From the human T2T-CHM13v2.0 reference genome, Homo sapiens: DNA of 64,000 nucleotides. Under the pieces are notes generated by a model that saw only the letters and a program-made list of their open reading frames with translations, was not told the DNA's origin and did no database searches. The DNA lies in contig CP068257.2 in NCBI GenBank assembly GCA_009914755.4, positions 37,632,001 to 37,696,000 of the forward strand, given 5' to 3'. Of this stretch, positions 2,437 through 29,674 are shown piece by piece (the first letter of the stretch is position 1; each line of letters starts with the position of its first letter). The position numbers and the translations under genes were made by a program.

Positions 2437-2479
<43 letters not shown>

Positions 2480-7548: not shown

Positions 7549-8391
<843 letters not shown>

Positions 8392-9072: not shown

Positions 9073-9186
9073 GCTGTTAAGGTGGGTATAGGAGGCTGCG
9101 CAACCTCCCATGAGCTGGAAGCCACAGAGGCTGTTAAGGTGGGTATAGGAGGCTGCGCAACCTCCCATGAGCTGGAAGCCACAGAG
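9073..9186. repeat. 57-bp tandem duplication (2 copies)
   Basis: ctgttaaggtgggtataggaggctgcgcaacctcccatgagctggaagccacagag(g/a) occurs twice back to back. This explains the overlapping ORF-track entries at 8956-9282. Confidence 0.9.
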
Positions 9187-17965: not shown

Positions 17966-19721
17966 AAATGTTTCATTAAGCATATACATCAATCACTATT
18001 CCAAAAAAAATAAAATTGATTTTGGATACAACTAGCCTAGAAAAAAGTCTTCAAAGTTCTTCTAAGCATTAGTTCTCCAAGTGCTCCAATGAAGGCTAAC
18101 AACCCAATCCAAAGTGAAGGCTTCTTTTACTTCTTATAAACAATTTCATAAATTTTTGTCTTAGTATATAATAAAAGGATAATAAGCTACAAGATAAATG
18201 ATTAAAGATTAACCAAATTTGGTATTCATGAACTAAAATGAACACTTTTCTAGATTTTAAGGTGGGCTCTACTTCAGCTCATTACTAAGATGACTAAGCA
18301 CCATGCAAAATTTGGCAATGCTGCCGGGTCTCAAGCATATATATGAAAAAGTCTGCAGCCACAACTACCCTAACAGAGATTTCAGAAAGGATGCTCTAAG
18401 TCTATCATGAGTGTAACCTTAAATAGATTACTTTTATACTGTTTTATTCTTCCTTTTAAACTGTAAACTATATTAGTTTAATATCATCAATTTATAGTTA
18501 AGTTAGTTATTTGGTTAACTCTACAGTGTAGAGCTATGCATATTTGTTGTCTGCACCTTTAACTTTCCAGTAACTAAATGTTACGCGTTCGGTGTTGGAG
18601 AAATGAGACATCTACTCAGTAACTGCCAGAACAAACTCACGTCCACGCCCAAGTAAGTCACTGCTTGAATAGTGATACTTCACTATTGTTGCACATGAAA
18701 AGGATGACAATTAGCAAACGTGGAAAAAATAAAGTTACTCGGATATTCAGAGGATTGCTGAATAAGATGTGCATATTAATTCATATTCTCTTAACATAAA
18801 AAGGAAAAAATTGTGTGTGTATATATATTATATATTTTTTTTCCTCCAACTGATCATTAAAACATAAGAACATGGTTTCACCCACATGGTCCTTCTAGGA
18901 GCCACCTGTGCCACAGCACAACCTGCATATATGTACCATTTTGCATCCCTGGCCTGGGACCTTCAGTCATGGTTAAAGCAGATGCCAGTGGGGAGGGAGT
19001 GGCAAAATCTCAAAGCTGGAAAGCTGAAGATGGTGGCAGCAACTCTGCCCATCATACATGTGGACTTAACAGCACCAAAAGCTTTTCTATAAATACTTGC
19101 TGAGATGAAAGTTTTCTCAAGTGGGCAGACCTATCTAAGCAGAGCAAGGAGGACTTGGGGTTTCACTTGTAACTGGAAGCGTCCTATACAATGATTCCTG
19201 ACAAAACGCAACCTGCAACTGTGTCTGGAGAAAAATGTCACATTAAAGTTTATTACGTATTCATGAAATATTGTTGCTATTAATAACTGACAACCCTATT
19301 TAGTCTATCTAGAATTAGGAATTATGAGCCTCTTAGCTGAGCAGTAAGGAAATGTCAGTAAACAAGGCCAATTTTGGCTATGCAACTGGAAATAAGATCA
19401 TTGTTGCCCACGTGAAATGTTTTTTCAGATTATTCTTTGGCATAGAGTTTTTCCGCTTATATTCTGCTTAAAGCCTAAATTAATGTAGTTTTTTGTTTTG
19501 AGGAGTTAAATTCAGGATGTAATATTATTACTGAGTATGAAAGGATAGTTAAGGTAATGGATGTATCCCACGGATTTTAAAACGACAGAAAAATTGTCCA
19601 AGAATGTTTAGTTCTTTTTCCAATAATTTGAATACACAGAAACGCAGCTTTCAGAGATGCCTAATTGTCTATTTGTACTTTGATCATACTATGTAAAATG
19701 TTTTAGAATGCATTTAATCAA

Positions 19722-19790
19722 AGGTCTAAGAACCTGAGAATCAAAGGTCTAAGAACCTGAGAATCAAAGGTCTAAGAATGCATCAGCATC
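19722..19790. repeat. 23-bp tandem repeat, about 3 copies (aatcaaaggtctaagaacctgag)
   Basis: gaatcaaaggtctaagaacctgagaatcaaaggtctaagaacctgagaatcaaaggtctaagaatgcatc. Confidence 0.9.
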
Positions 19791-26275: not shown

Positions 26276-26817
26276 TTTTTTAAATAAAAATAAAGCAGAC
26301 ATGATTTCCAGAAGACAAAATGTGGAAACATTTCTCAGAAAAACTGATATGAAAAAGTGCAAAGTTAAAATCAGGAAACAAACTCTAAAGTAAAATCTAT
26401 GACTTTTATTTTTAGAGAGTCTCGCTCTGTCACCCAGGCTGGAGCTCAATTTTCTTTTTTAACCTTAATAATAAAGTATGTTTGCTTACCCTATTTCCCA
26501 GCCTTGGCTCTAAGCTACTTTTAAATTTTTTCAAAAATCCTATCCACAGAAAAGTATAATTTCCACTCTTAACGTACTTGAGTTAATTTTATCTTTTTTA
26601 CTTGTAGAAGCTTTTAAATGCAACATCTAAGAAGGAGGTCAATGCTTTGAACCATAGAAAAAGTACATGTTATTCTTTGCTACACAACGTAAGGATAAAT
26701 TTACCTGGATGTCTCTGTTCACCTGATATGCAGTACGCAGCTATTCACTTATACCACAGCTCTTCGTAATAGAAGGTAGCTATAATCCCCTCAACAAAAT
26801 AACCACTGAGAGACACA

Positions 26818-26850
26818 GAGAGCGAGAGAGAGAGAGAGAGAGACAGATCG
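26818..26850. repeat. (GA)n microsatellite, about 60 nt downstream of the exon ~11 donor
   Basis: agagagcgagagagagagagagagagacagatcg. Confidence 0.9.
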
Positions 26851-26889: not shown

Positions 26890-27012
<123 letters not shown>

Positions 27013-28267: not shown

Positions 28268-28620
<353 letters not shown>

Positions 28621-28655
28621 CTATACTAACATGTAGCACATTATATTTGCCTAAT

Positions 28656-28689
28656 AACACACACACACACATACAAAACACACACTTAC
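28656..28689. repeat. (CA)n, read as (UG)n in the transcript, directly abutting the donor of the 41-nt micro-exon
   Basis: acacacacacacacatacaaaacacacacttac on the plus strand. On the gene strand the intron begins gtaagtgtgtgttttgtatgtgtgtgtgtgtgt. Confidence 0.9.
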
Positions 28690-28730
28690 CGATCACCATT
28701 GTTACAAAATTGGATACTATCTACTTTATC
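28690..28730 (-). CDS. BRWD1: BRWD1 41-nt micro-exon (inferred exon ~10)
   Basis: Acceptor is ccccctttag|GATAAAGTAGAT. Translation is DKVDSIQFCNNGD plus CG. Donor is GATCG|gtaagtgtgtgttttgtatgtgtgtg. Phase 0 in, phase 2 out, and the next exon starts with G, giving CGG=Arg. PHIP paralog: DKVDSIQFSNTSNR. Confidence 0.8.
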
Positions 28731-29674
28731 CTAAAGGGGGGAAAAGGACAAATACAAAAATGATCATCTACATGGTCTGTGAATTTGAAAAAATGAAGTT
28801 TTAATGCTAGAAGCCTATTTGCTTTAACAAGCAAAATTTGCACTTGTGTTGCTTAGCCCTGTCATTCAACATGTTTTATAATTTTAAGTGAAGACTAACT
28901 ACAAACCTAAGACTACTAAAATACAGCTTTCATTTCAAAGAAAGGCACATCTAACAGGAAAAAAAGCCTTGCTTCTAAACTTAAAGCAGTATTTATAATT
29001 ACATCTGTTTAAGATGACTTATATGGAAGTGAAATGTGTGGAAAGTGCTCAAAATATAGGCTTTAAAGTAGCTAAAAATAAGGCATTTTCAATTGTTGTT
29101 TTAAGTTATTTAAATCTGTATCTATCAAATAACCTCTGGATGTGGACTGCCTTCCCAAAAGCTTCAAATAAAAGAAAAGATGGCCTAACCCTGACCAGTA
29201 CTTCAGAACACTGACAGTTTTCTATCTTACTATGCATTATTAAAATCACATTCTTATTTCATGGGCTTGGTTAGATAAACAGGCTCACTTAAAGTTAACC
29301 CACCCAGATCAACTGTCATAATCAAGATTTTGAACATAAAGCTAAAATAACCACTGTAAAATATTAGGCCTCTCAAGTGCTAATCTGAGTTGCCAGTGAC
29401 ATACCTCCCCTTTAAATATAATTGCTTGTATGCTTAAATTAAAATTAGAATAGAATTAACAAAAACTATATTGTACCTAGACATTTTCATTTTTATAAAT
29501 ATACAAACATCTCTAACAATATTTTAACTGTCAAATAGAATTCAGCAAAAATTTAAGATAACATTCACAAGCAATGACTTATCTCAGAAATGCAACTATG
29601 ATTTAATATTTTAAAACTTAATACCATCAAAAAGTTATAAATGACAGTTCATTTGTTCAACAGAAAAAAAATTA

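What the first reader, a model, noticed from the sequence alone, without database searches (positions are those of the whole stretch)
28656..28730. 41-nt micro-exon whose 5' splice site runs directly into a (UG)n repeat
The exon 28690-28730 (DKVDSIQFCNNGD plus CG) is only 41 nt. On the transcribed strand its downstream intron starts gtaagtgtgtgttttgtatgtgtgtgtgtgtgt. This is a GU/UG-repeat of about 30 nt beginning at position +5 of the intron. (UG)n runs are the canonical binding motif of TDP-43 and also of CELF-family proteins. Intronic GU-rich elements immediately downstream of a 5'ss are known to modulate recognition of short exons. Skipping of this exon (41 nt, not a multiple of 3) would frameshift BRWD1 within the WD40 domain. 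So this is a plausible point of TDP-43/CELF-dependent regulation, or of NMD-coupled splicing. The (CA)n on the plus strand is also a candidate length-polymorphic microsatellite, so repeat length could act as a cis-modifier of exon inclusion.
Basis: partly seen in the sequence, partly recalled or inferred. Interest (0 to 1): 0.5.

Follow-up and report, generated by a model that had tools for sequence, protein, structure and literature searches.

The report
GU repeat beside tiny BRWD1 exon
A 41-base coding exon of the primate BRWD1 gene is followed directly by a short GU-repeat that matches the TDP-43 binding motif, but the evidence available here suggests an ordinary intronic microsatellite next to an ancient exon with very strong splice signals rather than a proven splicing switch.

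Summary
Window 28730..28690 (minus strand) is a 41-nt BRWD1 exon (DKVDSIQFCNNGD+CG). Its intron begins gtaagtgtgtgttttgtatgtgtgtgtgtgtgt, a 29-nt imperfect GU tract at +5..+33: (GU)4-UUU-GUA-(UG)7-U. Skipping the exon shifts the frame and gives a stop four codons later.

The regulatory interpretation is untested, and what I could test does not favour it.
- The 41-nt exon with identical borders is present in PHIP, BRWD3, frog and the placozoan Trichoplax, none with a GU tract. The exon therefore does not need the tract.
- The tract is found only in the two primate BRWD1 sequences available (the window and tamarin), in different lengths.
- The flanking intron is no more conserved than the intron average (91.6% against 89.4%).
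- The primate exon has the strongest splice signals of its family (17/18 pyrimidines; U1 duplex −11.2 kcal/mol).
- BRWD1 is absent from the TDP-43 knock-down and over-expression splicing tables I could search.
- The longest perfect run is 7 units, which makes it a poor candidate for a polymorphic repeat.

Most likely this is a TDP-43-bindable but functionally near-neutral microsatellite seeded by the donor's own GTAAGTGT. A TDP-43-sensitive, decay-coupled skipping event remains possible (about 10-15%). Interest is low.

The parts
28690..28730 (-). 41-nt BRWD1 coding exon (DKVDSIQFCNNGD + CG), phase 0, within the WD40 propeller
   Evidence: The same 41-nt exon is found in tamarin, sauropsid BRWD1 and PHIP, mole-rat BRWD3, frog and Trichoplax.
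28731..28750 (-). 3' splice site with polypyrimidine tract tgtccttttcccccctttag (17 of 18 pyrimidines at -20..-3, the best of 13 exons mapped)
28682..28692 (-). 5' splice site UCG|GUAAGUGU (-3..+8); predicted U1 duplex -11.2 kcal/mol with 9 contiguous pairs, second strongest of 13 exons
28657..28685 (-). Imperfect GU tract at intron +5..+33: (GU)4 UUU GU A (UG)7 U; 12 GU units in all
28678..28685 (-). Proximal (GU)4 block at +5..+12; overlaps donor positions +5..+8 and so the U1 pairing region
28658..28671 (-). Distal perfect (UG)7 block at +19..+32; the only stretch long enough for a full 12-nt TDP-43 site
   Evidence: site size from PMC13558559
29768..29868 (-). Upstream exon (101 nt) that would be joined to the downstream exon if the 41-nt exon were skipped
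26891..26989 (-). Downstream exon (99 nt)
26975..26977 (-). TAG stop codon read in the shifted frame if the 41-nt exon is skipped (...ESHT VPKW*); it lies 84 nt before the next exon junction, so nonsense-mediated decay is predicted
   Evidence: One search gives the translation; the coordinates are derived from the exon start at 26989

Best explanation
This is an ancient, constitutively spliced 41-nt BRWD1 exon with near-optimal splice signals. A GU microsatellite has grown in the primate lineage from the donor's own GTAAGTGT. The tract is a genuine TDP-43/CELF-type motif: one full 12-nt site in the (UG)7 block at +19..+32, plus a (GU)4 block that overlaps the U1 pairing region. It is probably protein-bound in cells (inferred). 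It most likely has little or no effect on inclusion of the exon at normal protein levels, so it is a bindable but near-neutral intronic simple repeat. Shown here: the sequence anatomy, the gene identity, the age of the exon, the absence of the tract outside primates, the lack of extra conservation, and the strong splice signals. Inferred: protein occupancy and the absence of a functional effect.
For: 1. The 41-nt exon with the same ag|...|gt borders and phase exists without any GU tract in sauropsid BRWD1 and PHIP (L003, L002), naked mole-rat BRWD3 (L004), a frog homologue (L006) and Trichoplax (L005). Its recognition therefore does not depend on the tract. 2. The peptide is present in nearly all of about 110 aligned homologues, as expected for a constitutive WD40 strand. 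3. The primate version has the strongest signals of the family: 17/18 pyrimidines and a U1 duplex of -11.2 kcal/mol, against -6.6 to -11.0 elsewhere. 4. Human and tamarin both carry the tract, but with different lengths and interruptions (12 against 10 GU units). The first 100 intron bases are 91.6% identical against an intron-wide 89.4%, so there is no excess constraint. 5. BRWD1 does not appear in the held splicing tables for TDP-43 over-expression (uncut human PSI table) or depletion, and no paper links BRWD1 splicing to TDP-43. 6. GU tracts near splice sites are very common in human introns.
Against: The coincidence is locally rare (about 0.3-1% for this window). The tract has persisted in two lineages separated by roughly 40 million years (a divergence date from general knowledge). 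TDP-43 binds 12 nt of GU with very high affinity. UG motifs are slightly enriched at the downstream donor of TDP-43 skiptic exons, and several of those exons are very short. The negative literature evidence comes from thresholded lists, some of them truncated, and a decay-sensitive skipped isoform is easily missed. No CLIP or RNA-seq data could be examined.
Confidence: 0.6

Rival explanations
1. One reading: the GU tract is an intronic silencer. TDP-43 (or CELF) bound at +5..+33 competes with U1 or blocks definition of the short exon. This would cause regulated skipping, a frameshift and nonsense-mediated decay, so that BRWD1 dosage tracks nuclear TDP-43 level.
For: There is a full TDP-43 site within 32 nt of the donor, and the proximal block overlaps +5..+8. 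Skipping gives a premature stop. There is precedent for GT repeats that promote skipping through TDP-43, and for skiptic exons with UG motifs near the downstream donor, several of them 23-49 nt long.
Against: BRWD1 is not in the uncut human TDP-43 over-expression table, although that table does report decay-predicted events. It is also absent from the depletion tables. The U1 duplex is very strong and extends to +8. There is no flank conservation of the kind typical of regulated decay-coupled exons. UG repeats downstream of a donor enhanced rather than repressed splicing in model substrates.
Confidence: 0.12
2. Enhancer model: protein bound to the GU tract (TDP-43, or another GU-binding factor) stabilises U1 at the donor and so helps define an exon that is too short for comfortable exon definition.
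For: A (UG)13 element or UG repeats placed downstream of a donor stimulated its use and increased U1 binding, and a UG-tailed oligonucleotide raised SMN2 exon 7 inclusion (PMC3973305). Internal exons under about 50 nt are known to be hard to define (general knowledge, Dominski and Kole 1991; not checked here).
Against: The same 41-nt exon is spliced in lineages and paralogues that have no tract and weaker donors (U1 duplex -6.6 to -8.1 kcal/mol). The primate donor is already near-optimal. BRWD1 is not among the events reported as mis-spliced on TDP-43 loss.
Confidence: 0.15
3. Repeat-length polymorphism acts as a cis-modifier: alleles of different (CA)n length change inclusion of the exon.
For: Thousands of tandem repeats are associated with splicing in GTEx, and TARDBP is the most enriched binding protein at them (PMC10078293). 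The tract differs in length between human and tamarin.
Against: The longest uninterrupted run is only 7 units and the tract is interrupted twice. Dinucleotide repeats this short are usually monomorphic or nearly so (general knowledge, Weber 1990; not checked here). No independent human allele could be retrieved. That paper's supplements are not held.
Confidence: 0.05
4. RNA-structure models: either the tract folds into a pUG quadruplex at the donor, or it pairs with a complementary (AC)n at the far end of the intron to bridge the splice sites, as in fish (AC)m-(GT)n introns.
For: The human tract contains exactly 12 GU units. The pUG fold needs at least 11.5 repeats and tolerates short insertions.
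Against: The 1,700-nt intron has no (AC)n of 3 or more units, so bridging is rejected, and that mechanism is restricted to teleosts and lamprey. The 12 units are split by a 3-nt and a 2-nt insertion, the first four overlap the U1 site, and the tamarin has only 10 units. pUG folding is slow (half-time about 15 min) and is prevented by TDP-43. Ordinary secondary structure is no better than in shuffled sequence (z = -0.49).
Confidence: 0.03

Closest known systems
CFTR exon 9 (TG)m(T)n element bound by TDP-43
   Same: A UG repeat directly abuts a splice site of an exon whose loss inactivates the protein. The TDP-43 motif is on the transcribed strand (described in PMC10078293 and PMC2978352).
   Different: The CFTR repeat lies upstream at the 3' splice site, next to a weak and variable T tract. 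It is longer, polymorphic and experimentally proven. Here the tract lies downstream at a very strong donor, is interrupted, has at most 7 perfect units, and is untested.
UG repeats near 5' splice sites (Passoni et al. 2012, J Mol Biol 415:46; Brosseau et al. 2014, PMC3973305)
   Same: The geometry is the same: a TDP-43-binding UG tract in the intron just downstream of a donor.
   Different: Those studies report effects that vary with context ('unpredictable' in the title of Passoni et al., a paper that is not held; stimulation of the donor in Brosseau et al.). BRWD1 was not found in any text I could search. From memory, the genes studied by Passoni et al. were others.
TDP-43 'skiptic' constitutive exons (Fratta 2018; Carmen-Orozco 2024, PMC11163724)
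   Same: These are constitutive, conserved exons with short, species-specific UG motifs near the downstream donor. Several are very short, and some are predicted to trigger nonsense-mediated decay.
   Different: BRWD1 is not in the uncut human table of such exons.
Splicing-associated tandem repeats, for example the PLEKHA1 GT repeat (PMC10078293)
   Same: An intronic GT repeat flanks a cassette exon, and TDP-43 is the top binding protein for this class.
   Different: Those repeats are polymorphic and statistically associated with splicing in GTEx. Neither property is shown here.
Fish (AC)m-(GT)n bridging introns (PMC4691745) and the pUG fold (bioRxiv 2021.12.21.472683; PMC13558559)
   Same: A GU dinucleotide repeat at an intron boundary, with 12 GU units in the human sequence.
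   Different: There is no complementary AC partner, and in fish the orientation is AC at the donor and GT at the acceptor. The units are interrupted and are not conserved in number in the tamarin.

Membership tests
TDP-43-regulated UG-repeat splicing element | At least 6 contiguous UG repeats (a 12-nt site) on the transcribed strand | tested here: met
   (UG)7 at window 28671..28658 on the minus strand; 12-nt site size from PMC13558559
TDP-43-regulated UG-repeat splicing element | Located close to the splice site of the affected exon | tested here: met
   The tract spans +5..+33 of the intron after the 41-nt exon
TDP-43-regulated UG-repeat splicing element | TDP-43 cross-links to the tract in cells (CLIP) | not testable with these tools
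   No CLIP tracks are available. No paper in the library reports BRWD1 as a TDP-43 target at this site.
TDP-43-regulated UG-repeat splicing element | Exon inclusion changes when TDP-43 is depleted or over-expressed | tested here: inconclusive
   BRWD1 is absent from the held tables of PMC11163724 (uncut), PMC12667841, PMC8891020 (truncated) and PMC5446763. These lists are thresholded, and the skipped isoform would be sensitive to decay.
Micro-exon | Length of 27 nt or less (strict, neuronal SRRM4 class), or 51 nt or less (loose definition) | tested here: not met
   At 41 nt it fails the strict definition and meets only the loose one. The thresholds are from general knowledge.
Decay-coupled regulated cassette exon | Skipping or inclusion introduces a premature stop upstream of exon junctions | tested here: met
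   Skipping gives ESHT-VPKW*, with the stop at 26977..26975, 84 nt before the next junction
Decay-coupled regulated cassette exon | Elevated conservation of the flanking introns | tested here: not met
   Human-tamarin identity is 91.6% in the first 100 nt downstream, 96% and 95% in the last 137 nt upstream (polypyrimidine tract), and 89-90% across the introns. Only one species pair was available.
Decay-coupled regulated cassette exon | Both isoforms are observed | not testable with these tools
   No RNA-seq junction data are available
(AC)m-(GT)n structure-bridged intron | Complementary AC and GT repeats at opposite ends of the same intron | tested here: not met
   No AC run of 3 or more units in the 1,700-nt intron
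pUG fold | At least 11.5 GU repeats, short insertions tolerated | tested here: inconclusive
   12 GU units, but split 4 + 1 + 7 by UUU and AU; the tamarin has 10; requirement
Polymorphic dinucleotide microsatellite | A long uninterrupted run (roughly 10-12 units or more) and observed length alleles | tested here: not met
   The longest perfect run is 7 units. Allele data are not available; the metagenome and genome scans returned no human copy.

The most novel reading that the evidence does not exclude
A primate-specific GU tract has turned an ancient constitutive 41-nt exon of BRWD1 (from memory, a chromosome 21 gene encoding a chromatin reader) into a TDP-43-dose-sensitive switch. Excess nuclear TDP-43 would cause skipping, a frameshift and nonsense-mediated decay. 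This would give a species-specific link between TDP-43 level and BRWD1 dosage that standard RNA-seq misses because the skipped isoform is degraded.
Probability: 0.1. Interest if true: 0.4.

Novelty: new member of a known kind. Interest (0 to 1): 0.15.

Why it matters
If the tract were functional, BRWD1 would join the list of genes whose dosage depends on nuclear TDP-43 through a species-specific UG element. That would be of some relevance to TDP-43 proteinopathies and to BRWD1 dosage. As things stand, its main value is as a caution: a perfect binding motif placed right next to a fragile-looking short exon is not evidence of regulation. Such tracts are abundant near human splice sites, and this exon is spliced without the tract across animals. 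The comparative result is a small but clean piece of gene-structure history: a 41-nt exon whose borders are conserved from placozoans to primates and across three vertebrate paralogues. It also explains why some automated gene models omit these 13 residues.

Tried and rejected
1. Fish-type AC/GT intron bridging was rejected: the intron has no AC partner.

2. A stable local hairpin that sequesters the donor was rejected: z = -0.49 against shuffles.

3. The repeat as part of the nearby Alu tail was rejected: the Alu A-rich tail ends about 70 nt away.

4. An hnRNP L-type CA-repeat element was rejected: the transcript carries GU, not CA, at this site.

5. Dating the tract in non-primate mammals failed. 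Pongo, Sminthopsis and Colius BRWD1 isoforms are not on record as genes. The eel gene is too long to return DNA. A 130-aa query found nothing (a wasted search). The P0091 query returned no non-primate mammalian BRWD1 fragment that covers the exon.

6. Looking for independent human alleles in metagenome and prokaryote genome contigs failed. Only two sauropsid contigs were found, and nothing in genome contigs.

7. Passoni 2012 and Tollervey 2011 are not held. The splicing-repeat catalogue supplements and the NMD-inhibition preprint supplements are not held.

8. A literature link between BRWD1 and TDP-43, exon skipping or micro-exons was not found. The only hits were an unrelated FUS knock-down event in BRWD1, a retained-intron signature and miRNA target lists.

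9. The Rfam scan of the window found only an Alu-related SRP hit.

Full report
**Observation**

Reading the minus strand of window 28400-29000 shows ...tgtccttttcccccctttag|GATAAAGTAGATAGTATCCAATTTTGTAACAATGGTGATCG|gtaagtgtgtgttttgtatgtgtgtgtgtgtgttattagg. The exon is window 28730..28690, 41 nt, and encodes DKVDSIQFCNNGD plus CG.

The GU-rich tract runs from +5 to +33 (28685..28657, 29 nt) and is imperfect: (GU)4, UUU, GU, A, (UG)7, U. Tandem Repeats Finder lists it as (AC)15 with 82% matches at 28657-28685. The perfect 14-nt core is at 28658-28671, where none is expected in dinucleotide-preserving shuffles.

**Gene and exon map**

I first used a probe recalled from memory only to locate exons. 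I then defined every junction from the sequence and built a 562-residue peptide purely from the window.
- That peptide is 100% identical to 'BRWD1 isoform 9 [Pongo abelii]'. It is 86-96% identical to BRWD1 of beaver, a marsupial, a bird and a gecko. PHIP and BRWD3 are more distant paralogues.
- It is WD40 throughout.
- Thirteen exons were mapped with exact borders, and four further downstream exons from tblastn matches only. The 41-nt exon is the shortest of these 17 exons.
- The label 'exon 10' cannot be checked here, because residues 1-66 lie outside the window.
- Skipping the exon gives ...ESHT-VPKW*, with the stop at 26977..26975, 84 nt before the next junction. By the standard 50-55-nt rule, nonsense-mediated decay is expected (the rule is established knowledge).

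**Splice signals**

The exon has the best polypyrimidine tract of the 13 (17 of 18 pyrimidines). Its donor is UCG|GUAAGUGU, whose predicted duplex with the U1 5' end is -11.2 kcal/mol with nine contiguous pairs reaching +8. That is the second strongest of the 13. The first four GU units therefore overlap the U1 pairing region. Only the (UG)7 block at +19..+32 is a free, full-length 12-nt TDP-43 site (site size from PMC13558559). Local RNA structure is no better than in shuffled sequence (z = -0.49).

**Comparative evidence**

- In the tamarin Saguinus oedipus (L001) the exon is identical, and the intron begins gtaagtgtgtgtatttgtgtgtgtgtgctgttagg. A GU tract is present, but with a different interruption and 10 rather than 12 GU units.
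- A degenerate back-translation of the exon found two contigs from one metagenome. They are the BRWD1 and PHIP genes of a sauropsid, with BRWD1 94.7% identical to bird BRWD1.
- Gene loci were also retrieved for naked mole-rat BRWD3, a frog homologue and Trichoplax.
- In all five of these loci the exon is again exactly 41 nt with the same ag|...|gt borders, and none has a GU tract.
- The exon architecture therefore predates bilaterians and is shared by the three vertebrate paralogues, while the tract is seen only in the two primates.
- The donors of the tract-less versions are weaker (U1 duplex -6.6 to -8.1 kcal/mol in four of five). The exon peptide is nonetheless present in nearly every homologue aligned.
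- Human-tamarin identity is 91.6% in the first 100 intron bases, against 89.4% for the whole intron and 90.0% for the upstream intron. That gives no sign of extra constraint.
- I could not obtain a non-primate mammalian BRWD1 locus. The tract's origin is therefore bounded only between the amniote ancestor and the anthropoid ancestor.

**Chance**

This is the only tract of this GU density on the transcript strand in 64 kb. With 17 donors in the window, the probability that such a tract starts within 10 nt of one is about 0.3%. Scaled to about 2x10^5 human donors, tens to about 100 such cases are expected from placement alone. The donor consensus GTAAGT followed by GT is itself a slippage seed. 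The literature reports about 20,000 human (GU)>=12 tracts, 97% of them intronic and enriched near splice sites. The arrangement is real but not exceptional.

**Literature**

- The mechanism class is well established. The CFTR exon 9 TG repeat and the PLEKHA1 GT repeat promote skipping through TDP-43, and TARDBP is the top binding protein at splicing-associated repeats (PMC10078293).
- TDP-43 over-expression causes skipping of constitutive exons that carry short, species-specific UG motifs. These motifs are slightly more frequent at the downstream donor (PMC11163724).
- The geometry found here has also been reported to act the other way. UG repeats downstream of a donor stimulated splicing and U1 binding, and that paper calls the role of TDP-43 at donors 'more ambiguous', citing Passoni et al. 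2012 (PMC3973305). The Passoni paper is not held.
- BRWD1 is absent from the uncut human over-expression PSI table, which does contain 23-49-nt exons and decay-predicted events. It is also absent from the held tables of three depletion studies, one of which is truncated.
- No paper links BRWD1 with TDP-43, exon skipping of this exon, or micro-exons.

**Alternatives tested**

- Fish-type AC/GT bridging needs a complementary AC tract in the same intron. There is none, and the mechanism is restricted to teleosts and lamprey.
- A pUG quadruplex needs at least 11.5 GU repeats but tolerates short insertions. The human tract has exactly 12 units, split 4 + 1 + 7; the first four lie under U1, and the tamarin has 10. 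Folding is slow and is blocked by TDP-43. The fold is not excluded, but it is unlikely.
- As a polymorphic marker the tract is weak, because the longest perfect run is 7 units.

**Verdict**

The most likely explanation (about 0.6) is a TDP-43-bindable but functionally near-neutral primate microsatellite, lying beside an ancient constitutive exon that has unusually strong splice signals. If functional, it would be a new member of a well-known class and not a new kind of element. Interest is low (0.15).

Noticed in passing
window 26808-26847 (+ strand (GA)20; CU-rich on the BRWD1 transcript): A roughly 40-nt (UC)n-type tract lies 44-83 nt downstream of the donor of the next exon (26989-26891). 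CU repeats are the classical PTBP1-type motif, so two consecutive BRWD1 exons are each followed by a different dinucleotide repeat.
   Followed up: no
window ~28400-28585: An Alu that is sense on the + strand, and so antisense in the BRWD1 transcript, starts about 105 nt downstream of the 41-nt exon. On the transcript it gives a U-rich run followed by ttttttgag|atggag, the usual Alu-exonisation acceptor. Part of it aligns with the tamarin intron.
   Followed up: partly
window 2437-2476: A perfect (GT)20 on the + strand, which is (AC)20 on the BRWD1 transcript, lies deep in the intron between exons 3416-3315 and 364-230. It is a far better candidate for a polymorphic microsatellite or an hnRNP L-type CA repeat than the tract in the finding.
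   Followed up: no
proteins P0028 (Erpetoichthys BRWD3) and P0010 (Anolis PHIP): These database gene models lack the 13 residues encoded by the 41-nt exon, while all other homologues have them. The likely cause is that gene predictors missed the short exon.
   Followed up: partly
window 28689-26990 compared with L001 33324-34224: The human intron is 1,700 nt against 901 nt in the tamarin. The human sequence has two extra blocks at intron positions ~340-870 and ~1100-1400, presumably lineage-specific repeat insertions.
   Followed up: no
window 9073-9186 and 19716-19778: Two perfect (100%) tandem duplications in BRWD1 introns: a 57-nt unit x2 and a 23-nt unit x2.7.
   Followed up: no
window 7650-7766 (+): The only Rfam hit at gathering threshold in the window is Metazoa_SRP (72.4 bits), consistent with an Alu-related sequence rather than an SRP RNA gene.
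   Followed up: no
tool behaviour: A 130-residue query to the search for homologous proteins returned only 96 candidates and no hit, although the 562-residue query that contains it returned 188 hits. The word index seems too sparse for short queries. Almost all hits returned were under about 1,100 residues, so full-length BRWD1, PHIP and BRWD3 were never seen.
   Followed up: no
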